Of a stretch of 64,000 nucleotides of DNA, positions 12,891 through 44,959 are shown in pieces. The notes under the pieces were generated by a model. The model was not told the DNA's origin, searched no databases, and saw only the letters and a list, made by a program, of their open reading frames with translations. The stretch is taken from IMG/VR virus record IMGVR_UViG_3300021420_000019, positions 37,524 to 101,523 of that record. One strand, written 5' to 3'. Each line of letters starts with the position of its first letter. The first letter of the stretch is position 1. This stretch comes from a virus. A program made the translations under genes and the position numbers.

Positions 12891-12944
12891 GCTGGGAAGA
12901 GTCTCATAGCTCTTCCCGGCACCCTACTATGAGAGGGGTATATG
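12891..12944 (+). promoter_or_regulatory. Kissing-loop RBS-sequestering element, copy 1
   Basis: gctgggaagag[tctcatag]ctcttcccggc a ccct[actatgag]aggg gtat ATG. Confidence 0.7.
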
Positions 12945-13511
12945 AAAAGAGTTAGAGATAGTTTGTTGTCTCCGGAGGACTTTGCTCGTCTTAGGGCAAT
13001 GTCCCCTAAAGTACCTAAAGAAGCCATAGCGTTAAAACAGCGGAAAGAGTCCTCTCCCTTTAGGAAGAGGTTGAAGGTTTCTCCTGTTGTAGTCCTAGAA
13101 AGGGTAGAAAAGCCCGAACTCAGTAAAGACTATCTATCTTTGAGGGCTGCCATATCCGATCCTAGGTTACCTGTTGCAAAAGCCTCTTCGAACATCAAAG
13201 ATGTGTTGTTTATTGGAGACGGTCAGCATATTTGGAAAAGCCAGTGGGTGGCGCTAGCGTGGGCGGAGAAGCATAAGAGTTCCAAAACCCGAGTCCGTTG
13301 GGCTAGTAGTTTTTATTCTATTAAAGGCTACATATTTGCAAGGAACGGTCATAACGAAGCGGAACAGATGTTGAAGTGGTGGGACGGGTTGTTGAATATC
13401 GTACCATATGAGATTCCACTCCCCCCTCCTCCATCAGATGAAGAATTGTTAGCCTGGTGGAAAGAGTTAGAAGCAAAAATGGCAGAAGTAGGTATGAAGG
13501 ACAAACAATGA
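12942..13511 (+). CDS. Hypothetical protein
   Basis: 189-aa ORF with GAGG RBS; no motif recognised. Confidence 0.7.
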   Translation: MKRVRDSLLSPEDFARLRAMSPKVPKEAIALKQRKESSPFRKRLKVSPVVVLERVEKPELSKDYLSLRAAISDPRLPVAKASSNIKDVLFIGDGQHIWKSQWVALAWAEKHKSSKTRVRWASSFYSIKGYIFARNGHNEAEQMLKWWDGLLNIVPYEIPLPPPPSDEELLAWWKELEAKMAEVGMKDKQ

Positions 13512-13933
13512 CCGAAACCAACTACGTTAACCGAGTAGACCAGACGCGTCTCCAGAAGATAGACGGCAGCAAGCTGGCCGAATCCGTGGACGAGGAACTC
13601 TACCCCCGACGGGACAGAAAGATCGGAACTGATCCAGTACCCGTGGCCCCTCTTGTTCCTACGAGCATATATCCGTCCCTTTGGGCTAGCGCTAACCAAG
13701 ACCCGCCGAAAGCGGGCGACACCATAACCACGGACCTGGATTGGGTAAATTCTACCGAACCGGACGAGCTTCCTGACGATGGTATTGGGAACGTGGCACC
13801 GACTCCAGCACCCGAACCACCCTTTGCACTTTACTTTGGTCCCAGTCGAGAAGAGTTTGAAACGTTTAAGAAACAAGTTGTCGCGGCTTTGCGCCATATA
13901 GGCGTAGATGTAAGAAAGTACTTCGAAGTATAA
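13508..13933 (+). CDS. Hypothetical protein
   Basis: AAGGA RBS; ATG overlaps the upstream stop. Confidence 0.7.
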   Translation: MTETNYVNRVDQTRLQKIDGSKLAESVDEELYPRRDRKIGTDPVPVAPLVPTSIYPSLWASANQDPPKAGDTITTDLDWVNSTEPDELPDDGIGNVAPTPAPEPPFALYFGPSREEFETFKKQVVAALRHIGVDVRKYFEV

Positions 13934-13967
13934 ATTGGGAAACGTCCCTCCTGATCCGAGGGTACGA

Positions 13968-14017
13968 GTCGGGGTGGCTCACTCCACCCCGGCATCCCTA
14001 GTGAGAGGGAATAAATG
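13968..14017 (+). promoter_or_regulatory. Kissing-loop element, copy 2
   Basis: gtcggggtgg[ctcact]ccaccccggc a tccct[agtgag]aggga ataa ATG. Confidence 0.75.
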
Positions 14018-14830
14018 CACATCAGCGAGAAACAAGTTCCTGGGAAGGAACACACATTTGTAGCTGTGAATGGAAAGACCGAGACTGGGACTTTACCCGC
14101 TCTTCGTGGGCAAAGCAACTCTTTTGCGTTTTGGGTTAAAGACGAAGCTTGCATAAACGGTGGGTACTGGCGATCCCAGCTATATTTAACTCAGCGTAGA
14201 AAGGATTGGTCTACCGGAAAGAATGGCTTATTAGGGAGAATGAGGAACCTAATGAATAGCCAGAAGCAACAAGCTCAAAGAAACGGGCACAAGCCACCAC
14301 TTGTTACTGCCGAACAGATGTCATCAATGTGGGTGTCCCAGAACGGTTTATGCGCTGCTTGCGGTGGTCAGTTGAGTTTATTAGGTGCTGCTTTTGACCA
14401 CAATCATGAAACTGGCGAACCACGCGGCTTCCTTCATCAATATTGCAATATCGCTGAAGGATGTACAACGCGGATGACGGAAGAAGAATTCAGAAAATTT
14501 GTAGAGTTTATCGGGAGTATTAAGATGAAGCATGATAAAGCGTACGATCAGCCAACCAACATGGCTAACGCTGGCACGACCACACCGGCGGCTAAGGTAT
14601 CTGGCGATATCAAGAATGATGCCCTAGGCAACCCGAGCCGGTTCGCACGTAACGCGAGCACCTCGGTGACCGAAGACACTAACTCTGAGATCGATACCCT
14701 CCGCGAGCTTCAACTCGGTTCAAACGGATATCAGGCAAATGGGTACCACCCCAGGGTGGCGAACTCCCCAGTTCCTACGAGAGGTTTCGGAGAAAGTAAG
14801 GCAGATGTAGGCGGGTACCAAGGCGAGTAA
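14015..14830 (+). CDS. Endonuclease VII-family protein read in frame into a probable resident gene (internal RBS + ATG at 14525)
   Basis: QNGLCAACG...FDHNHETGEPRGFLHQYCNIAEG; gggag-N7-ATG before MKHDKAYDQP. Confidence 0.7.
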   Translation: MHISEKQVPGKEHTFVAVNGKTETGTLPALRGQSNSFAFWVKDEACINGGYWRSQLYLTQRRKDWSTGKNGLLGRMRNLMNSQKQQAQRNGHKPPLVTAEQMSSMWVSQNGLCAACGGQLSLLGAAFDHNHETGEPRGFLHQYCNIAEGCTTRMTEEEFRKFVEFIGSIKMKHDKAYDQPTNMANAGTTTPAAKVSGDIKNDALGNPSRFARNASTSVTEDTNSEIDTLRELQLGSNGYQANGYHPRVANSPVPTRGFGESKADVGGYQGE

Positions 14831-15218: not shown

Positions 15219-15295
15219 GGCGGACGGGGCGATACAGGTGACGCCCCAGACTGTGAATCTGGGTATAGTGGGTTCAAGGCCCATCGTCCGCCCCA
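15219..15295 (+). tRNA. tRNA-His(GUG)
   Basis: Cloverleaf; loop ctGTGaa; encoded G-1; CCA. Confidence 0.9.
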
Positions 15296-15335
15296 AAAAT
15301 TGTTACGCAGGTCCAAATCCTAGCGTGATGACCTG

Positions 15336-15389
15336 ATCGGGGAGTGCCAGTAACACTCCCTGATTTGACTCTTTACTGGAGGGTCTATG
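15336..15389 (+). promoter_or_regulatory. Kissing-loop element, copy 3
   Basis: ggggagtg[ccagtaa]cactccct gattt gactct[ttactgg]agggtc t ATG. Confidence 0.8.
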
Positions 15390-15887
15390 AGCAGTGCAAA
15401 AGATATGCGAGCGCAGTTGGGGATGTATCCTACAACCGCCAGGCATAAGTTAAATAGATTGATAATGTTTTCTTTAGTTCAGAAGTCCGGATTGGATTTG
15501 TGCTTTCGATGCGGAGAGAAGATACTGACGCCGAAAGAATTATCGGTAGACCATAAGTTGCCTTGGTTTCGTATTTCCACGGAGCTGTTTTGGGATTTAG
15601 AGAACATAGCCTTCTCACATTTCTCCTGTAACTCGGAAGAGGGCCGGTCGAGAAATCCGAGCAATACTAGGAATCCGAATTTAATAGCTCCTGACGGGAT
15701 GCTATGGTGCAGTAGATGTAAGGATTATAGACATATTGAAGATTTTAGTCCATCTAGACGAAAGTCTAATGTTGGGCACGTCTGTAGAAAATGCGTATCA
15801 GATAAAGAGAAAACACGCTATTCTAAAGCTGTAAATCGTCCGGTTAGAGGCTACCGACAAACTATGAAAGCCTCAAAAGATTTTTGA
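15387..15887 (+). CDS. HNH homing-endonuclease-like protein
   Basis: CFRCG...SVDHKLPW...NIAFSHFSCN plus C-terminal Cys cluster; paralog of the 18900 ORF. Confidence 0.85.
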   Translation: MSSAKDMRAQLGMYPTTARHKLNRLIMFSLVQKSGLDLCFRCGEKILTPKELSVDHKLPWFRISTELFWDLENIAFSHFSCNSEEGRSRNPSNTRNPNLIAPDGMLWCSRCKDYRHIEDFSPSRRKSNVGHVCRKCVSDKEKTRYSKAVNRPVRGYRQTMKASKDF

Positions 15888-15896
15888 AAATAAGTG

Positions 15897-15925
15897 TTGA
15901 CAAACAAAACGGTTTGTGAGACACT
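15897..15925 (+). promoter_or_regulatory. Probable promoter of the tRNA/ncRNA array
   Basis: TTGACA-N17-GACACT. Confidence 0.55.
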
Positions 15926-16148
15926 ATGAAAGTCGAGAACGGAGATACCCACCGACTAATGTCACGGGCTTCGCTCGACAAAGTTTGATACTGTTTCATG
16001 CCGGAGAGATGCTAAAGCCGTGCACGGCTAATCTGGTGTGATGACATCGACCGGAGTCACTCCCTTTAGGGCGTGAACTCCTTAGCCTGGTCAGCCGTTG
16101 ACGCGAAGGCATCCGGTCTAGAACGTTTTCGTCGGCGAATATTTTTAT

Positions 16149-16223
16149 CCTTGTCTGATGTTAATGGTAGCATTCCTGTTTGAAGCACAGGCTGTAACCG
16201 TTCGAGCCGGTTGGCAAGGACCA
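16149..16223 (+). tRNA. tRNA-Phe(GAA)
   Basis: cctgt ttGAAgc acagg; GTTCGA; CCA. Confidence 0.85.
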
Positions 16224-16305
16224 GTTAGAGACATGCGGAGTCCGCGACGGATAGAAACGGCGCGGAATCCTACAGCGAGACGCAAGTCACCATGTCCACG
16301 TTTAT

Positions 16306-16393
16306 GCGTCTGTGGATGGAATAGGCAGACACGTCGGTCTCAAAAACCGATGACAGAGATGGCGTGGGAGTTCGAGTCTCCCCGGACGCACCA
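16306..16393 (+). tRNA. tRNA-Leu(CAA)
   Basis: Class II cloverleaf; ctCAAaa; CCA. Confidence 0.9.
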
Positions 16394-16400
16394 ATTTTAT

Positions 16401-16490
16401 TGTGGGCAGCATTGGATGCAGCGGACACTTATAAAGTCCGAATCAGCAGATCGCTGAGCCGATAGGGTCCGATTCCCTAGTCCACAACCA
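16401..16490 (+). tRNA. tRNA with UAU anticodon (Ile) and long variable arm
   Basis: ctTATaa; V-arm tcagc-agatc-gctga; T arm taggg tccgatt cccta; CCA. Confidence 0.7.
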
Positions 16491-16495
16491 AGTTT

Positions 16496-16581
16496 GCCGT
16501 TGTGACGGAATGGTATACGAGGGAGTCTTAAAAACTCCTGTGCTCACGCACATGCTGGTTCGAGTCCAGTCAACGGCACCA
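16496..16581 (+). tRNA. tRNA-Leu(UAA)
   Basis: ggagt ctTAAaa actcc; CCA. Confidence 0.92.
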
Positions 16582-16585
16582 ATCT

Positions 16586-16653
16586 GGCGGAGACAGAGGT
16601 TCGATTCCTCTCTTAGGTCACTGACCCGAGTCGTCTAGCGGCAGGATACCGCC
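16586..16653 (+). ncRNA. Circularly permuted, anticodon-less tRNA mimic (YrlA-like topology)
   Basis: ggcgg-agac-[T arm agagg ttcgatt cctct]-[closed acceptor-like stem]-tc-[D arm gtctagcggcaggat]-a-ccgcc. Confidence 0.7.
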
Positions 16654-16908
16654 TAACAAGATCGCAAGTCCTACGGGGCGAACGATAGAACACGGCAGGG
16701 CGAACTCGGGTGGAAACACTTTAGAGCATCTGTGCTCCGTGGGCTCGGGGAACGCGACATCCCCAGAATTTGATATTCCAGAGACCTGTAAGTCCCTGAT
16801 ACGGCAAGGTCCCGGATTGCCAGGACGGTGCTACGCGCCACGATGGGGCCGCTTTGATGCTACTGGGCCAAGTTAACCAGTCAGTCCTGGCATAGGTATT
16901 CAAGTTTT

Positions 16909-16984
16909 GAATTCGTAGCTCAATTGCTAGAGCAATCGACTCTTACTCGATGGGTTGTGGGTTGGACTCCCACCGGATTCACCA
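16909..16984 (+). tRNA. tRNA-Lys(CUU)
   Basis: atcga ctCTTac tcgat; CCA. Confidence 0.9.
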
Positions 16985-17054
16985 AGTTTGACGTTCACTT
17001 AACAGTGAGATAACGACCGTAGCGGTTTCGCGTGACTCCGCCGTCAAAAGATTC

Positions 17055-17129
17055 GGATCGCTAATTCAAAGGCTAGAAGCGCTCTCTTTTAAAGAGTTAA
17101 TCTCCGTTCGAGTCGGAGGCGATCCACCA
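17055..17129 (+). tRNA. tRNA-Lys(UUU)
   Basis: gctct ctTTTaa agagt; CCA. Confidence 0.9.
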
Positions 17130-17137
17130 AGTTCTAT

Positions 17138-17225
17138 TGAGCCCATGACACAATGGTGTGTCCCTTCTCTGTAAAAGAAGCGGTCCTTGCGACCACGGTC
17201 AGTTCGATCCTGACGGGCTCAACCA
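17138..17225 (+). tRNA. tRNA-Tyr(GUA)
   Basis: cttct ctGTAaa agaag; long V-arm; CCA. Confidence 0.85.
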
Positions 17226-17226
17226 T

Positions 17227-17301
17227 AGTCGAGTAGCACAATGGCGGTGCAGACTCTTGATAGGAGTAAGGCTGTCCGTTCAAGTCGGACCTCGACTACC
17301 A
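17227..17301 (+). tRNA. tRNA-Ile(GAU)
   Basis: actc ttGATag gagt; CCA. Confidence 0.88.
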
Positions 17302-17377
17302 ATATTGATATCCGGGGGACTAACTAGGAGCCGTATAGCAGCCTAGTTCAATGCTGTACGGGAAACCTCCCCGGCGT

Positions 17378-17452
17378 GGGCGATGAGTAGGACGGGAATA
17401 TTCCTGCTTTGCAAGCAGCGAGAAATCGGTTCGACTCCGATATTGTCCACCA
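17378..17452 (+). tRNA. tRNA-Ala(UGC)
   Basis: ttTGCaa; G3:U70; CCA. Confidence 0.85.
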
Positions 17453-17459
17453 AATTTAC

Positions 17460-17532
17460 ACCCTGTTCGCCAAGCGGCTAAGGCATCTGGTTTACACCCA
17501 GACATTCGGGAGTTCAAATCTCTCACGGGGTA
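17460..17532 (+). tRNA. tRNA-Val(UAC)
   Basis: tctgg ttTACac ccaga; no encoded CCA. Confidence 0.88.
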
Positions 17533-17533
17533 C

Positions 17534-17609
17534 GGGCTGTTCGTTCACCGGAATAGGACACGACGCTACGAACGTCGAAAAAAGAGTTCGATTCTCTTAC
17601 GGCCCTCCA
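17534..17609 (+). tRNA. tRNA-Arg(ACG)
   Basis: cgacg ctACGaa cgtcg; CCA. Confidence 0.9.
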
Positions 17610-17613
17610 TCTT

Positions 17614-17689
17614 GACCCTGTAACTCAGCGCACAGAGTGTCCGCCTTCGAAGCGGTTCGCCGGGGGTTGGAATCCCTCCAGGGTCTCCA
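17614..17689 (+). tRNA. tRNA-Arg(UCG)
   Basis: ccgc ctTCGaa gcgg; CCA. Confidence 0.88.
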
Positions 17690-17798
17690 GTATGTTGTAA
17701 TACGAAGCGTAACACAACAGAAGGCGGCTACCAGTTGTGGGTAGGTCGCAAGTGAAATCCAAAGCACGTTCGGTGATAGCCCGGACAACATTTTCTGT

Positions 17799-17886
17799 TA
17801 AGGCGTAGGGGAATTGGTAGACCCGCTCGGCTGTTACCCGAGAGTCGTAAAGACACCTGTAGGTTCGAAACCTACCGCCTTAGCCA
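17799..17886 (+). tRNA. tRNA with Asn (GUU) anticodon and long variable arm
   Basis: ctcgg ctGTTac ccgag; V-arm gtc-gtaaa-gac; G73; CCA. Confidence 0.85.
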
Positions 17887-17894
17887 CTTTCAAA

Positions 17895-17969
17895 GGACGA
17901 TTAGTTTAATCGGTAGAACTGCTGTCTTGTAAACAGCGGGAAATGGTTCGAGACCATTATCGTCCTCCA
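17895..17969 (+). tRNA. tRNA-Thr(UGU)
   Basis: gctgt ctTGTaa acagc; CCA. Confidence 0.9.
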
Positions 17970-18041
17970 AGTTTTGTCTCTCGGTCATTATGGCCAAGCC
18001 GAGAAAATCTCTGTGGCGCAGAGTAAAGACAAAAAGTTTAA

Positions 18042-18116
18042 GCAGGGCTAGTATAATCGGTAGTACGCGCCCCTCGTAAGGTCGTAATGCGTGTTCGAGT
18101 CACGCGCCCTGCTCCA
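18042..18116 (+). tRNA. tRNA-Thr(CGU)
   Basis: ctCGTaa; CCA. Confidence 0.88.
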
Positions 18117-18177
18117 AGTTAAGCGGTGCCTCACTCTGATGTCCAGGTTAAATGTTCAGACAGCCGCTCTTGATTTT

Positions 18178-18251
18178 GCTGGCATAGCTCAATGGAAGAG
18201 CTTCCGCTTGGTAAGCGGAGGACTTGAGTCCGATTCTCAATGCTAGCTCCA
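18178..18251 (+). tRNA. tRNA-Thr(GGU)
   Basis: tccgc ttGGTaa gcgga; CCA. Confidence 0.9.
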
Positions 18252-18258
18252 ATTTTAC

Positions 18259-18336
18259 GGCCTGTTGGTCCAGCCTGGAGTGGACGCGTCCTTGTCACGG
18301 ACGAGATCGTGGGTCCGAATCCCACACGGGTCGCCA
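18259..18336 (+). tRNA. tRNA-Asp(GUC)
   Basis: cgtcc ttGTCac ggacg; GCCA. Confidence 0.9.
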
Positions 18337-18341
18337 TTTAC

Positions 18342-18415
18342 GGCCCTGTCGATTAGTGTCAGGTCATTCGCTTCTCAAGCGAACAGCAGCGGTTAGATTC
18401 CGCTCAGGGCCACCA
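18342..18415 (+). tRNA. tRNA-Glu(CUC)
   Basis: ttcgc ttCTCaa gcgaa; CCA. Confidence 0.88.
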
Positions 18416-18420
18416 AGTTT

Positions 18421-18497
18421 GAGGACATGGTCCAATCGGTAGCGATGCTGGCCTTTCAAGCCATGCGGTGCGGGTTCGAGTCCCGCTGTCCTTACCA
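18421..18497 (+). tRNA. tRNA-Glu(UUC)
   Basis: tggc ctTTCaa gcca; CCA. Confidence 0.88.
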
Positions 18498-18509
18498 AAT
18501 CGAGGAACT

Positions 18510-18770
18510 ATGAGCTGGGTGATGGTTAACGACTTCACCGTCGTGGAAAGAAAAGAAGACGGCACGGTAACACAGCAGGTGTTCACCTCGCACGCCCAGG
18601 CCCGTCAGTTCATGGAGAAGTACGCGGGACAAAAACCTATGAGGCCGCACAAGCCCACGATGCCTAGTCACGCTCGCGCTAGGTCCGGTAGTTCAAAGCC
18701 TATCATCCCGCAGACAGCGGAACAGATAGCGCTGAGAGAAGCGGCGCTGAAACAGTTTAACGGTTTGTAA
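18510..18770 (+). CDS. Hypothetical protein within the tRNA array
   Basis: GAGGA RBS, ATG 18510 (MSWVMVNDF...). Confidence 0.65.
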   Translation: MSWVMVNDFTVVERKEDGTVTQQVFTSHAQARQFMEKYAGQKPMRPHKPTMPSHARARSGSSKPIIPQTAEQIALREAALKQFNGL

Positions 18771-18777
18771 GTTTAAT

Positions 18778-18864
18778 CCGCTGGTGATGGAATTACCAGA
18801 CATGCGAATCTTAGAAATTCGTGCCCTATGTGGCGTGGGAGTGGAAGCCTCCCCCGGCGGACCA
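18778..18864 (+). tRNA. tRNA-Leu(UAG)
   Basis: cgaat ctTAGaa attcg; class II; CCA. Confidence 0.88.
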
Positions 18865-18899
18865 ATTTAAATCTTATCAACGACCGGGAGGTCAACGAT

Positions 18900-19337: not shown

Positions 19338-19344
19338 TTTCTAC

Positions 19345-19419
19345 TGCCCGTTATAGTTCTGTTGAACTTCGAGGTCTCATAAGCCTTGCAGGTTGGTTAG
19401 ATTCCAACACGGGCTACCA
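19345..19419 (+). tRNA. tRNA(CAU), Met/fMet/Ile2 undetermined
   Basis: ctCATaa; U1-U72 mismatch; atypical D arm; CCA. Confidence 0.7.
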
Positions 19420-19425
19420 CTTTAA

Positions 19426-19499
19426 GCGTCTGTGATGTAACGGTAGCATATTTGACTGCCAGTCAAATCGTCTCGATTCGAATTCGAGTAGACGCCCCA
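19426..19499 (+). tRNA. tRNA-Gly(GCC)
   Basis: tttga ctGCCag tcaaa; CCA. Confidence 0.88.
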
Positions 19500-19596
19500 C
19501 ATTGATGTTCGCCTGTCCGTGGCGCGAGTAATTACCGCAGCCGCCCAGGCCGGAGCCCGATCCCGAGAGTGTAAAACGTCATAGTCGGAAAAATTT

Positions 19597-22718: not shown

Positions 22719-22771
22719 GGCTTGGGAGAGCCCCTACTCTCCCAGGCCGACTCTTAAGGGAGAGACAAATG
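22719..22771 (+). promoter_or_regulatory. Kissing-loop element, copy 4 (one mismatch)
   Basis: ggcttgggagag[ccccta]ctctcccaggcc ga ctct[taaggg]agag acaa ATG. Confidence 0.6.
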
Positions 22772-23419
22772 AAAGGACATCTTTACAGATATCCGCATCC
22801 GTATAGTTCAGATAAGTTTATTTACGCCGGGCAGGGCGAGAAACGCGATAATGAGCATCGCGGTGGCCGAACTAGTTTCGGTCGTAGATTCGAGAAACTA
22901 TTTCCCGGCATTGAATTGCCGAATCCGGTAAGAGAGACGATTGAAGTCCGAGATTATTTAGAGCTAAATGAACTAGAAATAATCTGGATGTTTCAATATC
23001 ATACTTGGCGTGGATATCCTGGCGGAATGAATTTAACTTTACCCGGGTCAATCGATTATAGGAGTATGGGTTTAATCGGCGGACGTGTTCAGGGCCCTAA
23101 GAACGTAGAATCGGGGGCGCTAGCAAAAATCCAAAGTGCAGGCGGGCGTGTTAGCGGTCGAATGAATTCTGAGTCCGGACGTATTCAAGAACTCGGTCAC
23201 ACGCAGGGTCGTAAGAATGTTGAAAGCGGGCAACTTGCCAGTATACAAAGTATGGCCGGTCGTGCCGGTGGGCGCATAGCTTTAGAAAGCGGACAATTTT
23301 CTGGAATCAGAAGCAGAGGTAATCATAGTCGTTGGCACATAGCCCGTGGTATTTCTAGACCGAGTGTTTGTTCGTTGTGTGCAGAAACAGAAAATTTAAC
23401 GAGAACTAGCTTAACGTAG
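22769..23419 (+). CDS. GIY-YIG-like homing endonuclease with Gly/Arg-rich repeats
   Basis: GHLYRY...FIYAGQG..R..EH, conserved E, GGMN; paralog of the 54573 ORF; 3' end overlaps tRNA-Pro. Confidence 0.7.
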   Translation: MKGHLYRYPHPYSSDKFIYAGQGEKRDNEHRGGRTSFGRRFEKLFPGIELPNPVRETIEVRDYLELNELEIIWMFQYHTWRGYPGGMNLTLPGSIDYRSMGLIGGRVQGPKNVESGALAKIQSAGGRVSGRMNSESGRIQELGHTQGRKNVESGQLASIQSMAGRAGGRIALESGQFSGIRSRGNHSRWHIARGISRPSVCSLCAETENLTRTSLT

Positions 23420-33942: not shown

Positions 33943-33971
33943 TTGACAAGCAGACAGAAGTGTGCTAAACT
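33943..33971 (+). promoter_or_regulatory. sigma70-type promoter of the HNH gene
   Basis: TTGACA-N17-TAAACT. Confidence 0.6.
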
Positions 33972-33989: not shown

Positions 33990-34035
33990 GGGGGTGCCTC
34001 AATCACCCCCTACTCTATTGAGGAGAGTAAACATG
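33990..34035 (+). promoter_or_regulatory. Kissing-loop element, copy 5
   Basis: gggggtg[cctcaat]caccccc tactct[attgagg]agagta aac ATG. Confidence 0.82.
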
Positions 34036-34632
34036 TATCATACTATAAAGGATTTGATAGGTAAAAGATTCGGTAAGTTATTAGTAGTTGCAGATTCTGG
34101 TGAGAGAAATAACCACAGAGAAGTAATTTGGTCGTGTTTATGCGATTGCGGGAAAGAGTGTAAGAAAACGTCCAGCACTCTTTCAGCGAATAAAAGTAGA
34201 TCATGCGGCTGTAATCGGTCGGAGCCTAAGCCCAGCCTTCAAAAGAAGAGAATAGATGACGCGCCGCAACGTCAATCATTTACGCAATATCGTGTCGCCG
34301 CCAAAAGCAGAGGCTACACTTTCAATCTCACGCTAGAACAGTTTAAGAATATTTGTTCGTTAGATTGTTTTTATTGTGGTTCTTCTCCGTCAATGGTTAA
34401 GAGAACGAAATATGATTCTATATCTATGAACGGAGTAGATCGCAAAGACAACGTTTTAGGATATGAATCTAGTAATTGTGTTCCTTGTTGTGATATTTGT
34501 AATAGGATGAAACATACTCTGTCTGTAGAAGAGTTTGTTCAACACATCGAGAAGGTGTACCATTCCAGCCGTCAGTCAAAAACAAGCGATCATGATGCGT
34601 ATCGCGGAACATCATCCGGAAGAGTTGTATGA
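34033..34632 (+). CDS. HNH homing endonuclease
   Basis: LIGKRFGKL..WSCLCDCG..SCGC; CFYCG..NGVDRKDN..GY..SNCVPCC..CNRMK; start moved to ATG 34033. Confidence 0.88.
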   Translation: MYHTIKDLIGKRFGKLLVVADSGERNNHREVIWSCLCDCGKECKKTSSTLSANKSRSCGCNRSEPKPSLQKKRIDDAPQRQSFTQYRVAAKSRGYTFNLTLEQFKNICSLDCFYCGSSPSMVKRTKYDSISMNGVDRKDNVLGYESSNCVPCCDICNRMKHTLSVEEFVQHIEKVYHSSRQSKTSDHDAYRGTSSGRVV

Positions 34633-39068: not shown

Positions 39069-41189
39069 ATGACGGAACCATTGAACCCGCATGCGGCTGA
39101 AACCCTTGAGAGAAGGGCAGTCGATACTGTGGGCGATATTACGTCAAAGGACATGCACAAGGATTCCGGCACCGGGACCTACATGTTCGATGACAGGGCC
39201 GCGCTAAAGTTAGTTTTAGATGACGCTTCACGCGCCGACAATTACATCAACATCAACCAGTGGGCGAGTTCGTGGCAAGACTCCGATATCATTTTGCAGA
39301 GTCCCCGCCAGTCTAGCGCGTTCGATGGTGGGAACGTATCTCAGGCGAACGTTCCGAAGTTTACCCTGTCGAACCACATCAGTTCGATTGTTCCAAAGAT
39401 TATTGAGGGTCTCTTCTATGAGGACCCCCCGTTCTTGCTACGCCCGCGCCCGGGCACGAAGCAAGAGGTAACCCGTGCGAAGACCGCCTTGTTCTCCGCG
39501 CAACTGTGGGATATGCGGTTCAAGACCCAGGTCGAGCGCGGCACAGATCAGATGGCGCTGTTCGGGACCACTATATTCAAGTGGGGCTATCTAGAGAAGC
39601 CGGAGAAGGTTAAGAAGGCCCGTCGCAAGGCGGGACAGGCGATATTAGACACCTCGGTCTCTACCTCGCAGATCGATACTCCGGATTCGGACGACTTCGA
39701 AACATACATCGAAGAAGTTAAGATTTCTCGCCCGTGGTTTAAGTTCTGCGACATACGTACGGTCTTAGTGGACCCAGGCACCCGCGTCGGGGATATCCGA
39801 GAATCGAAGTGGGTAGTCTATCGCGATTACGCCACATATGACGATCTGAACAGCCTACGCGGTCTCTCGGGATACGATGTCCCGAGCGAAGAGGACTTGC
39901 AGGCGTTCTTCTTGTCCGGCCCGACAGTGAAGGCGGACAATATTACGATGACCATCCCGGAAGGTATGCGTGGCTACCTCCAGCACGCGCTCCCGCGTAG
40001 CTTTAAGACCAGCGCCGATCCGCAAGACTCTCCGATGGAGATTCTTGAGCGTTGGGATAAGCAGAAGGTCATTGTCGTACTCGCGTTCAACGGCAAGAAT
40101 ATATTGCTCCGAAACGAGCCGAACCCGTACGGAAAGATTCCGTTCTTTAGCGCAAACTGGAGAAATCTCCCGGACGCGTTCTACGGACAGGGCCTAGGAC
40201 AGCTAATCGGTTCAGAGCAGATCGTTGAACAAGGCATCACGAACCTAGCGCTTGATCTACTTGCGTACGGCTTGCAGCCTACAGCCGTTCGTAAGAAGGG
40301 CTTCAACGTTCCGACACAGATGACCCGCTGGAAGCAGGGCGGTATTATTGATGTCGATGATGATGTCGATAAAGCGTTCAAGTTCCTGACGATGCCTCCG
40401 GTCCCCGGCGAAGCATGGCAATTTTTACAGCAGGCACAGCAGGCCGCAGCGACAACATCTGGCGCGAACGAAATAGTCGGCCAGGGCGGAACCACAGGCG
40501 GCGGGCGTGGAACAGGAATGCGTTCCGGTACCGGAGCGTCAGCCGTTATCCAGGCCAACGCGTCCCGTTTGGACGGTCCGAGCGCACGTTTGGTTGAGCA
40601 GGTATTCGTCCCTTGGTTGTATCAAATGGATGAACTTAATAATGAACTTCTTCCAACATCAGTCCTCCGTCGAGTTCTCGGCGAGGAGTTGGGGGAGGTC
40701 TATATGGGCGATCATATCGACTTCCGAAATGCGAAGTTCGAATATGAGGTCCTCGCTGGAGCGCACCTCGGAGCCAAGAAAGAGATGGCTCAAGCGTTAC
40801 CAGTGATAATTCAGTTACTGAATAATCCTACATTTGTACAAAATGTAAATGACGGTCACTATCAATTTGACGCTGTGGCCATCTTTAAAGCCTTTACAGA
40901 TGCCGCCGGTTGGAAATTTAGTCAATCGTTTCTTCGTCCTATGTCACCGGAAGAGATACAGAAGCATGAAGCAAATTCTCCCGCTGCTATGCAGGCTCAG
41001 CAATTAAAGGGCCAACAGGCGATGCAGGCTCAGAAATTCCAACAGGATCAACAGTTAGAAGATCAAAAGACCCTAGGTAAGGCAGGTGCTGAAGTTCTCA
41101 GATCAGCTACCGAGCATTCTCTGGGAATGGAACAAGCCGGACAACCCAGCGATAACGCTGAGTCGTTTGGTTCGACAACGACGGTATAA
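39069..41189 (+). CDS. Portal protein
   Basis: Follows terminase; NPYGKIPFF...FYGQGLG; Q-rich C-terminus. Confidence 0.88.
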   Translation: MTEPLNPHAAETLERRAVDTVGDITSKDMHKDSGTGTYMFDDRAALKLVLDDASRADNYININQWASSWQDSDIILQSPRQSSAFDGGNVSQANVPKFTLSNHISSIVPKIIEGLFYEDPPFLLRPRPGTKQEVTRAKTALFSAQLWDMRFKTQVERGTDQMALFGTTIFKWGYLEKPEKVKKARRKAGQAILDTSVSTSQIDTPDSDDFETYIEEVKISRPWFKFCDIRTVLVDPGTRVGDIRESKWVVYRDYATYDDLNSLRGLSGYDVPSEEDLQAFFLSGPTVKADNITMTIPEGMRGYLQHALPRSFKTSADPQDSPMEILERWDKQKVIVVLAFNGKNILLRNEPNPYGKIPFFSANWRNLPDAFYGQGLGQLIGSEQIVEQGITNLALDLLAYGLQPTAVRKKGFNVPTQMTRWKQGGIIDVDDDVDKAFKFLTMPPVPGEAWQFLQQAQQAAATTSGANEIVGQGGTTGGGRGTGMRSGTGASAVIQANASRLDGPSARLVEQVFVPWLYQMDELNNELLPTSVLRRVLGEELGEVYMGDHIDFRNAKFEYEVLAGAHLGAKKEMAQALPVIIQLLNNPTFVQNVNDGHYQFDAVAIFKAFTDAAGWKFSQSFLRPMSPEEIQKHEANSPAAMQAQQLKGQQAMQAQKFQQDQQLEDQKTLGKAGAEVLRSATEHSLGMEQAGQPSDNAESFGSTTTV

Positions 41190-41275
41190 ATTTCCCACAG
41201 CCTCATGAACTGTGGTATACTAATCAGGGGCGAGCCTAGTACTCGCCTCAGATTATCTTACTAGGAGATAAAATG
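41190..41275 (+). promoter_or_regulatory. Upstream hairpin, TATACT -10 box and kissing-loop element, copy 6
   Basis: ccacag cctcatgaa ctgtgg TATACT aatc aggggcgag[cctagta]ctcgcctca gatt atct[tactagg]agat aaa ATG. Confidence 0.82.
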
Positions 41276-41839
41276 AAAAATTTAATAGGTAAAGTATTCG
41301 GAAGACTTACAGTTGTAGAAAGACTTGAGAATCACGTCGCTCCATGCGGTCTTCAAATTGTAAAGTGGAGATGTTCCTGTTCTTGCGGTGAAACTACTGA
41401 GGTATCTTCTAATAGCCTTTCAACAGGGAAAGTAAAGTCTTGCGGGTGCCTCGCAAAAGAGATGGCGGCACAAAAAGGATTTTTAAACGCAACTCACGGT
41501 GGGTATTCTAAGAACCGCAGTCTAGAAGATCAGATTAAGTTTCAGGCCCTGATAAATATAAGGGAGAGATCGAAGCGCAGGGGCTATGAGTCTGATTTAG
41601 AGATGTGTGATCTACCGGGCCTAACTGATTCATGTCCTGTATTAGGTATTAAATACTCTAGAGGGTCCTTAAAAGATAAGAATTTTTCTCCGTCCATAGA
41701 TCGAAAGAATACGAACCTACCGTATTTAAAGAAGTATAAAGATAATCTTGTATTTATTTCGCATCGAGCTAATAGGATTAAGTCCGATGCGACAATCGAA
41801 GAATTGCAAAAGATTTTGCAGTATCTTCAAAAGGAATGA
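41273..41839 (+). CDS. HNH homing endonuclease
   Basis: LIGKVFGRL..CSCSCG..SCGC; CPVLG..SPSIDRKN...N..FISHRANRIK. Confidence 0.88.
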   Translation: MKNLIGKVFGRLTVVERLENHVAPCGLQIVKWRCSCSCGETTEVSSNSLSTGKVKSCGCLAKEMAAQKGFLNATHGGYSKNRSLEDQIKFQALINIRERSKRRGYESDLEMCDLPGLTDSCPVLGIKYSRGSLKDKNFSPSIDRKNTNLPYLKKYKDNLVFISHRANRIKSDATIEELQKILQYLQKE

Positions 41840-42167: not shown

Positions 42168-43384
42168 TGAGTGTAACCCAAGGAATAACCCCCGAAACTC
42201 TAACGTTTGATGAAATCAAACTGTGGAGCGGTCAGGAGATGAAAGATCAGATGCGCAGGTCTAACGAGATGCGCGAGGCGGTCTATAAGATCATCTCGTC
42301 TAGGTCTCTATCGGAAGTTGAGGCGGCGCAGACACAGATAGATCAGAACGCCCCTCCGGCAGAGATAGTACCGACCACCGATGAGGCAGCCGCAGCCGAA
42401 CAACAGCGTTTGGCGGCAGAGGCCGAAGCACAGCGTGTCACGGCGCAGGAGACCGCACGCCAGGCCGCAGAGACCGCTGAAAACGAACAGTTACGTGTCG
42501 CCGGTATCACGGTTCAACGTGACCAGAACGGTAGTATTGTAAAATTGATTCAGGATTATCACGTACCCAGGGAAGACGGAACCCCTATCGGGCGACCGAC
42601 GCACCTAGAGGCCCGAAGCTGGCCCGAACTGGTTGCAAAGCAGAAAGAGGCGCACAGTCAGGCGACGAGAGCGTTCGACCGCTTGAAGTCACAGAAGATT
42701 TCATTTAAAGATCAACAGCCTATCGTTCCGGCTCAACAATCGGATGCGGACTTACTCGCCGCTATGAAAGACCTGAGATCAGACGATCCTCAGAAGCAGC
42801 TCGACGCTCTCAGAAAGGTTCAGAAGGCCGAGGCGGATAAAGTTAACGCCGAGCAGGCTGAATTTAGACGCCAGGCAGATGTAAGTAAGCGGTTCTTGGC
42901 GAATCACAAACACGACTTTAATAACTGTAAGGCAAACATCGAAATGGTCAAGGAATATTTCGAGCAGAACCCGGAACTCGCGTGGACTGACGATAACCTT
43001 GAAATTTGCTTACACGCCTTGGAATCAAAGCTGGCTCCTGTCGAGCCAGTAGCGCCCGTAGCCCCGGCTAATCCGGCACCGGCGGTAGCGCCAGTAGTTC
43101 CGACAATAGCAACGCCAGCGGCAGTGCAGCCGCAGGTGATTGTTCCGGCACCAACAGCAGCCCCGGCTAATCCGGTGGTGATTGTTCCAAGGCCGGGAGT
43201 CAACGGCGGACTCGTACCAGGTGAGACTTCAGCGTCTCGCCCGGGACCAGCGAAACCGAAAGGACTCACAGCGGAAGAGATTAAATCGTGGGACGGCCCG
43301 ACGATGCGAGCGAATATGCGTAATCCGCAGATGCGCCCGCAAATAGAACAGTTTTTCGCCGACCGTGCTCAAGGTAAAAGGTAA
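42167..43384 (+). CDS. Capsid scaffolding protein
   Basis: Helical, A/P-rich linker, directly upstream of the capsid gene; ATG 42167. Confidence 0.65.
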   Translation: MSVTQGITPETLTFDEIKLWSGQEMKDQMRRSNEMREAVYKIISSRSLSEVEAAQTQIDQNAPPAEIVPTTDEAAAAEQQRLAAEAEAQRVTAQETARQAAETAENEQLRVAGITVQRDQNGSIVKLIQDYHVPREDGTPIGRPTHLEARSWPELVAKQKEAHSQATRAFDRLKSQKISFKDQQPIVPAQQSDADLLAAMKDLRSDDPQKQLDALRKVQKAEADKVNAEQAEFRRQADVSKRFLANHKHDFNNCKANIEMVKEYFEQNPELAWTDDNLEICLHALESKLAPVEPVAPVAPANPAPAVAPVVPTIATPAAVQPQVIVPAPTAAPANPVVIVPRPGVNGGLVPGETSASRPGPAKPKGLTAEEIKSWDGPTMRANMRNPQMRPQIEQFFADRAQGKR

Positions 43385-43418
43385 ACCGCGCATCTAAAGC
43401 ACACTGGAGGGCACTGCT

Positions 43419-44836
43419 ATGGCAGGCTCACCAAATCCGTCAGCAGCAAATGTTGGGAATATATTGACGGCACAAAGTATCCTTTTCGATAAGGAACTTA
43501 TTCCTAACCTCAATTAATGGGGTCACTTAGATTTTAAGTGAGAATCTTCTCTAATGGACTTGAACCCTGAGACGGGAACAAGGCGCAAGCGAAAGCAGCG
43601 TGAGAGACTAAACGAGAAGACCCGCTGACGGCGGGATGCGATAGTCCGCTCTAACAGGAAAAAGAACTGTTAGTTAACATAAGGCAAGGGAGAAACGGAC
43701 GCGTTCCTCGTAGCGGCAGAGCGTAAAGTTCAGCCGTTGAACGCAGGTATCAACCGTCAGTTCTTCCAGTACAACACCCTAACCGGCGACACGACACAGG
43801 TCGGTGATGGCGTGGTAGGCGCACCAGAGTTCGTAGGACAGATTTCATCTCCCGCGCAAGTTGGAGAGTGGAACAACTACAGTAACTTCAGCAGCTTTGT
43901 TATCGCTTCAGCCTTGGACGATGTAGTTGGAAACAGCGCAATCGAACTAGGCTACCAAGCGGGACAGAGCATCTCTGAGTTGTACAGCGCGGTAGCCGAT
44001 GCAGCAGGAGCGGCCAGCGTTGACACCCAGGTTAACCAGAGCGCGTTGCTAACTACCCCGTTCGTTCTCGATTTGGGAACGGTACGTGAGTTGAAGCAGC
44101 AGCTTGTTTCCAAGAACGTGTTGCCGAACCGTGGCGGCAAGTTCGCAGGGGTCGTTTCACCTAACGTCCTAGGCGATATCTTCAATGCAACGACAGTGAA
44201 CAACTCAATCGTTGACTTGTGGAAGCTTGGCAACATCGACAAGTTCGACAAGATGGCAGGTTCGGACCAGAAGATGGATATCGAACTGCCAGGCACAAAC
44301 ATCGTGCTTCGTCAGACACCTTTCGTTACCACAACCGCGAACTACAGCGGCAGCGGTAAGATCGCGTATCGCACCTACGTCTTCGGCAACTACGCCTTGA
44401 TCGGCGTGTGGCTAGAAGTCGGAGGCGACACCGACCTTCACGAAGGCGACTGGCGCACGATTGACTGTAAGGTTGTTGACAACGCTCCGGCGTCGTCATT
44501 CGACCCGACCGGAACAATCGGCGGATGGTGTTCCTAAATTATTGGGTCACTCGAAAGAGTGAGAATCTTCTCTGATTGACTTGGAAGCTGAGATGGCTGA
44601 CAGGGCGGAAGCCGAAAGGTACCGTGAGAGACTAAGCGAGAAGACGCCGCAAGGCGATGCGATAGTCCGTTCTCATGAGAAAAAGAATCATGAGAGGTTA
44701 GCAGAAATGACTAACCTATTACTTAAAAGTAATATAACAAAAAGATAAGTTTCATCAAACAGTCTCATTGCCTCCCGCCAGGGGTGCCAATACCCAACGC
44801 ATGCGTTGGATTGATAGTGTCCCGGCTATTCAGTAG
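43419..44836 (+). CDS. Major capsid protein, three exons: 43419-43510, 43685-44535, 44745-44836 (344 aa)
   Basis: GGAGG RBS; removing both introns restores the frame: ...KELIPNL|KGETDAF... and ...GGWCS|YKFHQTV...PAIQ*; N4-gp56/P22-like position. Confidence 0.88.
43511..43684 (+). mobile_element. Group I intron 1 (174 nt, ORF-less)
   Basis: Follows exon U, ends in G; GAGAGACTAAACGAGAAGA and GATAGTCC (P7); P3 tcttctc/gagaaga. Confidence 0.9.
44536..44744 (+). mobile_element. Group I intron 2 (209 nt, ORF-less)
   Basis: Follows exon U, ends in G; GAGAGACTAAGCGAGAAGA / GATAGTCC; closely related to intron 1. Confidence 0.9.
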
Positions 44837-44870
44837 GCAATAACTAGATAGTTAACACTATTTAGAAACA

Positions 44871-44959
44871 ATTTCCCACGACCTCATGAATCGTGGTATA
44901 CTAATCAGGGGTAGAGCCTAGAACTCTACCCCAGATTATCTTTCTAGGAGATTAAAATG
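44871..44959 (+). promoter_or_regulatory. Upstream hairpin, TATACT -10 box and kissing-loop element, copy 7
   Basis: ccacga cctcatgaa tcgtgg TATACT aatc aggggtagag[cctagaa]ctctacccca gatt atct[ttctagg]agat taaa ATG. Confidence 0.82.

What the first reader, a model, noticed from the sequence alone, without database searches (positions are those of the whole stretch)
12891..44959. Covarying kissing-loop RNA element that buries the RBS of unrelated homing-endonuclease genes (7 copies)
Seen: the same architecture sits directly before seven start codons. A GC-rich hairpin 1 is followed by a short hairpin 2 whose loop and 3' arm contain the Shine-Dalgarno sequence, and the two loops are reverse complements. 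Loop pairs: ctcatag/ctatgag (12942), ctcact/agtgag (14015), ccagtaa/ttactgg (15387), ccccta/taaggg (22769, one mismatch), cctcaat/attgagg (34033), cctagta/tactagg (41273), cctagaa/ttctagg (44957). Every loop sequence differs yet pairing is kept, and the stems also covary. Six downstream genes are HNH, EndoVII or GIY-YIG-like nucleases, so the element crosses protein families. Most copies have a third hairpin further upstream. Known: T4-type homing endonucleases are repressed by simple RBS hairpins; I know of no loop-loop version. Inference: a portable translational lock or switch that restrains toxic nucleases, or a cis-element that travels with these mobile cassettes. Copy-specific loops could make each lock orthogonal.
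Basis: partly seen in the sequence, partly recalled or inferred. Interest (0 to 1): 0.9.

Follow-up and report, generated by a model that had tools for sequence, protein, structure and literature searches.

The report
Kissing-loop leader RNA of phage nucleases
Seven selfish DNA-cutting-enzyme genes of this uncultured ~100-kb soil phage, and over a hundred more in its relatives, start behind the same small two-hairpin RNA. The tip of its first hairpin always pairs exactly with the tip of the second, which holds the ribosome-binding site, so it most likely restrains translation of these nucleases. No RNA catalogue or searched paper describes it.

Summary
All seven sites fold as described, and six have a perfect 6-8 nt loop-loop complement; the 22769 copy has one C.A mismatch. 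The motif is family-wide in an uncultured clade of ~100-kb soil phages: 116 unique copies, about 50 different loop sequences, 113 perfectly complementary, 2 with G.U. A pattern scan of IMG/VR that left the five middle loop bases free gave 75 of 82 perfect complements. The same pattern gave 0 of 120 in cellular genomes. G.U but never A.C occurs in the stem, so the selected structure is sense-strand RNA. Downstream genes are HNH/EndoVII, GIY-YIG/NUMOD3, T5orf172 and PD-(D/E)XK nucleases. The leader plus ORF forms one insertion cassette, often with its own sigma-70-like promoter.

The two invariant loop pairs and the second stem together cover a consensus, optimally spaced GGAG. I therefore read it as a cis translational lock; that function is inferred, not shown. 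A coaxial intramolecular kissing complex is sterically doubtful in many copies, so a pseudoknot, alternating states or dimers remain open.

There is no Rfam match, including int-alpA, and no paper was found. Earlier notes of this scan report similar leaders on other phage DNA.

The parts
12891..12944 (+). Leader copy 1: H1 12891-12920 (loop 12902-12909), H2 12921-12939 (loop complement 12927-12934), ATG 12942. Divergent subtype with CCCT/AGGG arms.
   Evidence: weak model hit E 3.4
12942..13511 (+). Downstream ORF, 189 aa, no recognisable family (P0001)
13968..14017 (+). Leader copy 2: H1 13968-13993 (loop CTCACT 13978-13983), H2 13995-14010 (loop AGTGAG 14000-14005), ATG 14015
   Evidence: weak model hit E 0.51
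14015..14830 (+). EndoVII-type (beta-beta-alpha-Me) nuclease gene, 271 aa
   Evidence: Pfam PF02945 E 7.5e-11; PHROG endonuclease VII
15335..15389 (+). Leader copy 3: H1 15335-15365 (loop CCAGTAA 15347-15353), H2 15368-15384 (loop TTACTGG 15373-15379), ATG 15387. Lies just after tRNA-His.
   Evidence: (E 9e-9)
15387..15887 (+). HNH endonuclease gene, 166 aa
   Evidence: Pfam PF01844; phrog_23251 E 3e-20
22719..22771 (+). Leader copy 4: H1 22719-22748 (loop CCCCTA 22731-22736), H2 22751-22764 (loop TAAGGG 22755-22760), ATG 22769. The only copy with a C.A mismatch in the loop helix.
   Evidence: model hit E 1.4e-4 although not in the seed
22769..23419 (+). 216-aa ORF (P0002), GIY-YIG/NUMOD3-like. 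Its 3' end overlaps tRNA-Pro (23400-23473).
   Evidence: no HMM hit; 44% identity to a member of the GIY-YIG cluster; atlas leads to GIY-YIG/NUMOD3
33943..33971 (+). Sigma-70-like promoter of copy 5 (TTGACA, 17 nt, TAAACT, TG before the -10), followed by the palindrome TTGTAGCTACAA at 33974-33985
33990..34035 (+). Leader copy 5: H1 33990-34010 (loop CCTCAAT 33997-34003), H2 34012-34028 (loop ATTGAGG 34017-34023), ATG 34033
   Evidence: (E 3e-10)
34033..34632 (+). HNH-type endonuclease gene, 199 aa
   Evidence: phrog_374 E 3e-18
41192..41221 (+). Promoter-like site of copy 6 (TTCCCA, 18 nt, TATACT with TG) enclosing hairpin H0 (41195-41215). The -10 box ends 6 nt before H1.
41227..41275 (+). 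Leader copy 6: H1 41227-41249 (loop CCTAGTA 41235-41241), H2 41254-41270 (loop TACTAGG 41259-41265), ATG 41273
   Evidence: (E 2e-8)
41273..41839 (+). HNH-type endonuclease gene, 188 aa, inserted between the portal stop codon and the SD of the next gene
   Evidence: phrog_374 E 2.5e-20; empty versus occupied sites
44873..44902 (+). Promoter-like site of copy 7 (TTCCCA, 18 nt, TATACT with TG) enclosing hairpin H0 (44876-44896)
44908..44959 (+). Leader copy 7: H1 44908-44932 (loop CCTAGAA 44917-44923), H2 44938-44952 (loop TTCTAGG 44942-44948), ATG 44957
   Evidence: (E 1e-9)
44957..45427 (+). EndoVII-type nuclease gene, 156 aa, with no detectable similarity to the copy-6 protein
   Evidence: Pfam PF02945 E 1.3e-13; BLASTP E 26 against the copy-6 protein

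Best explanation
The element is a cis-acting 5' leader RNA that belongs to free-standing homing-endonuclease cassettes of one clade of ~100-kb uncultured soil phages.

Anatomy. It has a stable GC-rich hairpin H1 with a 7-8 bp core, sometimes extended to 17 bp. H1 presents a 6-8 nt loop beginning CC. The loop is Watson-Crick complementary to the loop of a 4-5 bp hairpin H2 that starts about 14 nt further on. The two invariant loop pairs (CC with GG) engage the first half of a consensus GGAG Shine-Dalgarno. The H2 stem (CUCU with AGAG) engages the second half. When both form, an intrinsically strong ribosome-binding site (GGAG 5-7 nt before ATG) is buried.

Most likely function. The leader holds nuclease translation low, or makes it conditional, on transcripts that are abundant. 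The cassettes sit co-oriented inside tRNA and structural operons and often carry their own sigma-70-like promoter, which ends a few nt before H1.

Shown: the RNA structure, its covariation, its sense-strand nature, its link to nucleases of several folds, and its membership in the inserted cassette.

Inferred: repression of translation, the transcription start sites, and the three-dimensional form. That form could be an H-type pseudoknot, a bent kissing complex after the lower part of H1 opens, or alternation with H2.
For: - Structure: all seven copies fold into H1 and H2.
- Covariation: H1 7/7, loop helix 6/7 and H2 4/5 pairs show compensatory changes, with 0 of 500 shuffles as high. This holds on a MAFFT alignment and on a model alignment blind to the loop pairing.
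- Diversity: 116 unique leaders with about 50 loop sequences; 113 perfect, 2 G.U, 1 C.A.
- Unconstrained pattern scan: 75 of 82 perfect in IMG/VR against 0 of 120 in cellular genomes.
- Sense-strand RNA: at unconstrained H1 positions there are 241 WC, 15 G.U and 0 A.C pairs.
- Ribosome-binding site: GGAG is present in 106 of 116 leaders, mostly 5-7 nt before the start, and 111 of 116 starts are ATG. The split is loop end GG, then stem AGAG.
- Energies (medians): H1 -16, H2 -0.8, loop duplex -7.3 kcal/mol.
- Downstream genes: HNH/EndoVII, GIY-YIG/NUMOD3, T5orf172 and PD-(D/E)XK. About 123 of 150 nuclease homologues in the clade carry the leader.
- The conserved core EndoVII gene of the replication module, which is not a cassette, has none.
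- Cassette limits come from empty versus occupied sites.
- Promoters: TTGACA lies at a fixed -47 from loop 1 in 33 of 116 leaders.
- Precedent: T-even homing-endonuclease genes are repressed by RBS-sequestering hairpins (PMC2988022).
Against: - No expression data exist.
- Geometry. In the MFE folds the two hairpins abut, with 0-2 nt between them. Across the family, H1 length and linker length are anticorrelated (r = -0.57) and 49 of 116 leaders have an H1 of 11 bp or more. A coaxial stack of H1, loop helix and H2 needs a linker that spans 18-27 bp. That is impossible for these copies unless part of H1 opens.
- H2 alone is marginally stable yet covaries, so its role is not fully explained by a pseudoknot-only model.
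- A lock that never opens would need no strong SD. An unlocking trigger is therefore implied, but none is identified.
Confidence: 0.62

Rival explanations
1. The two complementary loops pair between molecules, not within one. In a head-to-tail dimer, H1 of molecule A kisses H2 of molecule B and the reverse. The SD is then buried only when the mRNA is abundant, which gives a concentration-dependent brake. Copy-specific loops would act as address codes that keep different nuclease mRNAs from cross-pairing.
For: - The steric problem of the intramolecular form disappears: short linkers and full-length H1 are compatible with two side-by-side coaxial stacks.
- H2 is too weak alone (-0.8 kcal/mol) yet covaries, as expected if it is stabilised by stacking on a loop helix.
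- Within a locus, no leader loop cross-matches another leader's partner by 6 nt or more: 0 observed against 6.9 expected, about 4% of permutations.
- Precedents: phi29-family pRNAs self-associate through complementary loops of identical molecules (PMC4201828). The tandem-hairpin guanidine-II riboswitch dimerised rather than kissing within one molecule in vitro (PMC9300104).
Against: - No data on oligomeric state.
- An mRNA under co-transcriptional translation is an unlikely partner for bimolecular folding.
- A pseudoknot without H2 is sterically feasible for most copies.
- The orthogonality signal is weak and is inflated by near-duplicate leaders in the permutation pool.
Confidence: 0.15
2. 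The leader mainly controls RNA fate rather than ribosome access. H1 at the 5' end, or between cistrons, blocks 5'-end-dependent decay or exonucleases. Alternatively, the quasi-continuous helix of about 19 bp is an RNase III-type processing site that separates the cassette from the host operon.
For: - H1 is very stable (median -16 kcal/mol) and begins within a few nt of the predicted start of cassette transcripts.
- The cassettes lie inside operons.
- RNase E processing is reported near T4 seg genes (PMC2988022).
Against: - A stabiliser hairpin needs no complement at the SD.
- The invariant pairs are precisely those touching GGAG.
- No cleavage data exist.
Confidence: 0.1
3. The element is a promoter-plus-stem-loop regulatory cassette of the PeSL kind. 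H1 would act as a terminator or insulator, and the repeated leaders would serve as recombination substrates that shuffle optional genes. The loop complement would be secondary.
For: - Sigma-70-like promoters lie next to stem-loops.
- Leaders of copies 6 and 7 are about 90% identical direct repeats, 3.7 kb apart, heading unrelated ORFs.
- The same site holds different ORFs behind similar leaders.
Against: - Only 19 of 116 leaders have 5 or more T in the 8 nt after H1, and only 12 have a T run of 4 or more, so most are not intrinsic terminators.
- This reading does not explain 113 of 116 perfect loop complements. It can coexist with the main explanation.
Confidence: 0.08
4. It is a DNA-level signal: inverted repeats bound by a protein, a cruciform, or a nuclease target site.
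For: The palindromes just upstream (TTGTAGCTACAA; GTTGCAAC in the promoter spacer) look like operators.
Against: - G.U is tolerated but A.C never (15 against 0 in 256 unconstrained stem cells), which fits only the sense strand as RNA.
- About 50 different loop sequences rule out one binding protein.
- The repeats are interleaved in a pseudoknot-like way, which is not cruciform-compatible.
Confidence: 0.02

Closest known systems
RBS-sequestering leader hairpins of T-even phage homing-endonuclease genes (I-TevI, I-TevII, I-TevIII, segB, Aeh1 mobE; review PMC2988022)
   Same: A stable RNA structure directly before a homing-endonuclease gene occludes a good Shine-Dalgarno. The genes sit in polycistronic contexts, and a promoter lies immediately upstream.
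   Different: In T-even phages one simple hairpin does the job, and a late promoter inside it produces a truncated, open transcript. Here the anti-SD is split between a hairpin loop and a second stem (pseudoknot or kissing topology). The loop sequence is hypervariable with strict covariation. The promoter lies before the whole structure. One design serves at least three nuclease superfamilies in more than 100 copies.
Guanidine-II riboswitch (mini-ykkC), tandem hairpins with loop-loop kissing next to an SD (PMC9300104)
   Same: Two small adjacent GC-rich hairpins whose loops pair, coupled to SD accessibility. The same open question applies of intramolecular pairing versus dimer.
   Different: Guanidine-II has conserved ACGR tetraloops, two C-G pairs and a ligand. 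Here the loops are 6-8 nt, fully Watson-Crick and differ in every copy, there is no sign of a ligand pocket, and no Rfam hit.
int-alpA RNA motif, Rfam RF02996
   Same: By those notes, a small structured leader before phage add-on and nuclease genes, with a loop that matches the RBS.
   Different: RF02996 finds nothing in this genome even at E <= 10. This leader is two tandem hairpins, not a three-way junction. The motif's own description could not be read, because no supplement is held.
PeSL promoter/stem-loop cassettes of T4-type phages (PMC2839356, PMC4122927)
   Same: Repeated small regulatory modules (sigma-70-like promoter plus stem-loop) at the 5' side of optional genes. Similar modules head unrelated ORFs.
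   Different: PeSL stem-loops are terminators and have no RBS pairing. Most H1 hairpins here lack a U tract, and their defining feature is the loop complement.
   Same: A phage RNA with two loops complementary to each other, whose sequences covary among relatives.
   Different: pRNA is a non-coding packaging-motor part that multimerises on the connector. This element is an mRNA leader, and self-association is untested.

Membership tests
T-even-type RBS-sequestering leader of homing-endonuclease genes | The Shine-Dalgarno of a homing-endonuclease gene lies inside a conserved, stable RNA structure | tested here: met
   GGAG is split between the H2 loop end and the H2 3' arm. Both helices covary.
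T-even-type RBS-sequestering leader of homing-endonuclease genes | One simple hairpin whose 5' arm is the anti-SD | tested here: not met
   The anti-SD is split between the H1 loop (CC...) and the H2 5' arm (CUCU), giving a pseudoknot or kissing topology.
T-even-type RBS-sequestering leader of homing-endonuclease genes | A promoter inside the structure, so that its transcripts lack the inhibitory arm | tested here: not met
   The promoter-like sites end 3-10 nt before H1, and none lies between loop 1 and the SD. Transcription starts were not measured.
T-even-type RBS-sequestering leader of homing-endonuclease genes | Demonstrated translational repression | not testable with these tools
Rfam RF02996 int-alpA | Covariance-model score at or above the gathering score (35.8 bits) | tested here: not met
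   No match at E <= 10 in the whole genome, in the leaders or in six related loci. The gathering run gave only tRNAs.
Guanidine-II riboswitch (mini-ykkC) | Two hairpins capped by conserved ACGR tetraloops | tested here: not met
   The loops are 6-8 nt and hypervariable, with about 50 sequences. No Rfam hit.
PeSL promoter/terminator cassette | Strong sigma-70-like promoter | tested here: inconclusive
   TTGACA, 17 nt, TAAGAT at a fixed position in 33 of 116 leaders, and an extended -10 in copies 6 and 7. Other leaders have weak or no -35 box. Activity is untested.
PeSL promoter/terminator cassette | The stem-loop is an intrinsic terminator (U tract) | tested here: not met
   Five or more T in the 8 nt after H1 in only 19 of 116 leaders.
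Intramolecular kissing-loop complex (three coaxial helices) | Loop-loop Watson-Crick complementarity maintained by covariation | tested here: met
   113 of 116 perfect; 6 of 7 pairs with compensatory changes.
Intramolecular kissing-loop complex (three coaxial helices) | A linker long enough to join the bases of the two stacked hairpins | tested here: inconclusive
   The linker is 0-10 nt and is anticorrelated with H1 length (7-17 bp). This is feasible only for short-H1 copies or after the lower part of H1 opens. No 3D modelling was available.

The most novel reading that the evidence does not exclude
The leaders are self-addressing mRNA tags. Each nuclease mRNA would then silence itself only once it becomes abundant, and the copy-specific loop sequences would keep the several cassettes of one phage from cross-silencing.
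Probability: 0.15. Interest if true: 0.9.

Novelty: new variant of a known kind. Interest (0 to 1): 0.75.

Why it matters
Homing endonucleases must be kept in check by the genomes that carry them. So far the only worked-out control is the simple RBS hairpin of a few T-even genes.

This leader is a compact element of about 50 nt, with over a hundred natural variants and near-perfect covariation in a tertiary (loop-loop) helix. It has been attached to nucleases of at least three unrelated folds and moves with them as a cassette.

It offers three things:
- a clean, directly testable model for how selfish genes are tamed;
- a natural library of dozens of mutually non-matching 7-nt loop pairs, which could serve as orthogonal translational locks;
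- a new family for RNA catalogues, which would improve annotation of phage intergenic regions and flag nuclease cassettes, including ORFs of no known family.

Tried and rejected
- Rfam: the gathering run, and E-value runs up to E = 10 on the leaders and on six related loci, gave only tRNAs and noise. RF02996 alone on the whole genome gave nothing.
- Weinberg 2017 paper: int-alpA is not in the main text, and no supplement is held.
- Literature word searches for kissing or pseudoknot together with homing endonuclease returned no description of such a leader.
- Megablast of the portal region against named phages found no match. The only named relative is Tunturiibacter phage Tunturi_3 (37% portal identity), which has no leader.
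- The leader does not follow the proteins outside the clade. Among 27 loci of EndoVII relatives from other phages, only the closest (57% identity) has it. Among 62 usable GIY-YIG loci, the four with 64-100% identity have it; two of the 58 distant ones (<40% identity) show a 6-nt loop/SD-window match, as chance predicts.
- A possible eighth copy at 23565-23586 (loop AGAAAT, complement ATTTCT just before AGGAG of the 510-aa DUF3494-like gene) lacks H2 and looks terminator-like. The model does not find it, so I did not count it.
- H1 as an intrinsic terminator was rejected for most copies.
- The DNA-level reading was rejected on the G.U versus A.C asymmetry.
- The orthogonality test was only marginal.
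- The atlas search gave nothing usable for P0001.

Full report
**Setting.** The window is the right-hand 64 kb of a single 101.5-kb viral contig, with CheckV completeness about 95%. It carries 31 tRNA genes at 15220-23555, a large terminase at 36842-39067 and a portal gene at 39069-41189. No named phage is close. The only named relative is Tunturiibacter (Acidobacteriota) phage Tunturi_3, at 37% portal identity. IMG/VR holds 72 related loci with portal identity of 54-88%, mostly from soil metagenomes, with contigs up to about 118 kb.

I read all seven sites. Minimum-free-energy folds recover the same layout each time. A GC-rich hairpin H1 is followed within 0-2 nt by a short hairpin H2, whose loop end and 3' arm carry GGAG or GAGAGG. 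The ATG lies 21-25 nt after H1, and z-scores are -2.8 to -4.8. Six are perfect complements of 6-8 nt, and the 22769 copy has one C.A mismatch. A further hairpin H0 lies upstream at most sites. A covariance model built without any loop-loop information, run with filters off, finds five copies strongly. It finds the two divergent copies (12942, 14015) weakly and nothing else of the kind in the window.

**It is far more than chance, and it is family-wide.**
- A descriptor scan of the related loci finds the same design again and again.
- With loops required to be of equal length there are 116 unique leaders and about 50 different loop-1 sequences. Of these, 113 are perfectly complementary, two have a single G.U, and one has C.A, which is the window's copy 4.
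- First check that does not select on complementarity: 350 generic 'two hairpins plus start codon' sites, parsed without looking at the loops, are bimodal. Forty-four have a complement of 6 nt or more, against 0.2% when loops are cross-paired between sites.
- Second such check: an IUPAC pattern that fixes only the top of H1, the CC/GG pair and the H2 arms matches 82 places in IMG/VR, and 75 have all five free positions complementary. The same pattern in bacterial and archaeal genomes gives 0 of 120.
- Third such check: on the model-made alignment of 67 hits from the portal-derived loci, the loop helix is 94% paired. Six of its seven pairs show compensatory changes, as do H1 (7/7) and H2 (4/5), and no shuffle of 500 reaches this (one search gives the same on a MAFFT alignment).

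**It is RNA of the sense strand.** At H1 positions that the pattern left free, I count 241 Watson-Crick, 15 G.U and 0 A.C pairs. A duplex-DNA or antisense-strand signal would not show that asymmetry. All copies are co-oriented with their neighbours.

**What follows the leader.**
- In the window, five ORFs match HNH or EndoVII models.
- The 22769 protein has no HMM hit. It is 44% identical to a member of the clade's GIY-YIG/NUMOD3 cluster, and its atlas neighbours are GIY-YIG/NUMOD3 families.
- The 12942 protein is an orphan.
- Across the clade, the 116 downstream proteins form one large HNH/EndoVII cluster (66), a GIY-YIG/NUMOD3 cluster (29), several small HNH clusters, two T5orf172/MUG113 proteins, one PD-(D/E)XK endonuclease and a few unknowns.
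- Conversely, about 123 of 150 nuclease homologues in these loci carry a leader.
- The EndoVII gene of the replication module (window 9384-10061, minus strand) is conserved in Tunturi_3 and translationally linked to its neighbour. It has no leader.
- Tunturi_3 has no leader at all.
- Outside the clade the leader does not follow the proteins. Only the closest of 27 loci with EndoVII relatives has it. Of 62 usable GIY-YIG loci, the four at 64-100% identity have it, and the 58 distant ones (<40% identity) do not exceed the chance rate.
- Most pattern-derived loci share other proteins with this genome, at a median of 70% identity. This leader type is therefore a trait of one phage clade.

**It is part of the mobile cassette.** Fifteen relatives have 336-418 nt between the portal gene and the next conserved gene, and none has a leader there. 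The window, L004 and L065 have about 900 nt. The alignment shows an insertion that begins right after the portal stop codon and ends at the SD of the next gene. It consists of H0/promoter, H1, H2 and a nuclease ORF. The ORFs at this one site differ, while the leaders are alike. Leaders 6 and 7 of the window are about 90% identical. Nearly all their differences are compensatory, in H0, H1 and the loops. Their proteins share no detectable similarity. The leader is thus a module that is exchanged or retained independently of the ORF.

**Promoters.**
- TTGACA lies at a fixed distance (median -47 nt from loop 1) in 33 of 116 leaders, with TAAGAT 17 nt further on.
- The consensus scan calls promoters before copies 5, 6 and 7; in copies 6 and 7 the -10 box ends 6 nt before H1.
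- If these promoters are used, cassette transcripts begin at or a few nt before H1. This is inference.
- In the fixed TTGACA/TAAGAT promoter type, 'H0' is a conserved palindrome (GTTGCAAC) in the promoter spacer and looks like an operator. In other leader types H0 covaries like an RNA hairpin, which would matter only on read-through transcripts.

**Mechanism.** The bases under constraint point to the ribosome-binding site.
- The two invariant loop pairs are C-G pairs with the GG of GGAG, and the H2 stem pairs CUCU with AGAG.
- The site itself is strong: GGAG in 106 of 116 leaders, mostly 5-7 nt before the start, and ATG in 111 of 116.
- A strong site that is doubly masked argues for a lock rather than merely weak expression. 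It parallels the RBS hairpins of T-even homing-endonuclease genes (PMC2988022).
- I therefore take a cis translational lock as the best explanation. Repression itself is not shown.

**The three-dimensional form is open.**
- H1 is paired through 7 bp in every copy and is extended to as much as 17 bp in many.
- The linker to H2 is 0-10 nt and is anticorrelated with H1 length (r = -0.57).
- The distance between the two loops is the conserved quantity: 13-25 nt, with a mode of 17-20.
- Stacking H1, the 7-bp loop helix and H2 in one molecule would need the linker to span 18-27 bp. That cannot happen with the 0-3 nt seen in the long-H1 copies, nor with the 0-2 nt of the window's MFE folds, unless the lower part of H1 opens.
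- An H-type pseudoknot, with the H2 5' arm as the crossing strand, is feasible for most copies but excludes H2.
- H2 is marginal alone (median -0.8 kcal/mol) yet covaries. This suggests that it is stabilised by stacking on the loop helix.
- A head-to-tail dimer satisfies all constraints. It has precedents in phi29-family pRNA (PMC4201828) and in the in-vitro behaviour of the tandem-hairpin guanidine-II riboswitch (PMC9300104).
- Within loci, leaders do not cross-match each other (0 against 6.9 expected), but only about 4% of permutations are as low and the pool contains near-duplicates.
- I give the dimer reading about 15%.

**Other rivals.**
- H1 as an intrinsic terminator fits few copies: 19 of 116 have a T-rich tail.
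- A role in stability or processing is possible but does not explain why the pairing targets GGAG.
- A PeSL-like role in modular shuffling (PMC2839356) may coexist with the lock.

**Novelty.**
- Rfam 15 has no match for any copy, nor for six related loci, at the gathering score or at E up to 10.
- Earlier notes of this scan report 'kissing-loop leaders' before homing-endonuclease genes on other phage DNA. Some tie them to the orphan Rfam motif int-alpA. I tested that lead here: RF02996 finds nothing in this genome at E <= 10. This leader is two tandem hairpins, so it is not a member by the model.
- Word searches of the paper library found the T-even hairpins, but no loop-loop or pseudoknot leader of nuclease genes.
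- I class it as a new structural variant of a known kind of control, RBS sequestration on homing-endonuclease mRNAs.

Noticed in passing
window 23565-23605: A hairpin (loop AGAAAT) directly after tRNA-Pro. Its loop is complementary to ATTTCT just 5' of the AGGAG of the 510-aa DUF3494/ice-binding-like gene at 23606. There is no H2, it is followed by a T-rich stretch, and the leader model does not find it. It may be a terminator or an unrelated SD-proximal pairing.
   Followed up: partly
window 33974-33985, and about 23 related leaders: The perfect palindrome TTGTAGCTACAA (variant TTGTACGTACA) sits between the -10 box and H1 in one class of leaders. It looks like an operator or a phage-specific start-site motif. 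In the window it occurs exactly only once.
   Followed up: partly
related loci, e.g. L062 about 4440-4470, L057 about 4340-4375: In the leaders with a consensus TTGACA/TAAGAT promoter, the 17-nt spacer holds a conserved palindrome centred on GTTGCAAC. This is a candidate repressor site within the promoter of nuclease cassettes.
   Followed up: no
window 22769-23419 and 23400-23473: The 3' end of the GIY-YIG-like ORF overlaps the start of tRNA-Pro(TGG) by 20 nt. Leader copy 3 starts 40 nt after tRNA-His. The nuclease cassettes are thus wedged into the tRNA array.
   Followed up: no
window 54561-55256: A second homologue of the 22769 protein, without the leader. A near-consensus promoter (TTGACA, 17 nt, TACAAT) ends 7 nt before its ATG and there is no SD, so it may be leaderless.
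   Followed up: no
window 9384-10061 (minus strand): An EndoVII gene in the replication module overlaps its upstream neighbour and is conserved in Tunturi_3. It is a core resolvase-type gene without leader, and a useful internal contrast to the cassettes.
   Followed up: partly
window 41186-41275 and 44867-44959: Two direct repeats of about 90 nt, about 90% identical (leaders 6 and 7), flank about 3.6 kb of head-module genes. They could support deletion or mini-circle formation by recombination, as described for PeSLs.
   Followed up: no
L137:5448-6185, L130:963-1388, window 12942-13511: A few leader-bearing ORFs have no known family. Since nearly all other partners are nucleases, they are candidates for new selfish nuclease families.
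   Followed up: no
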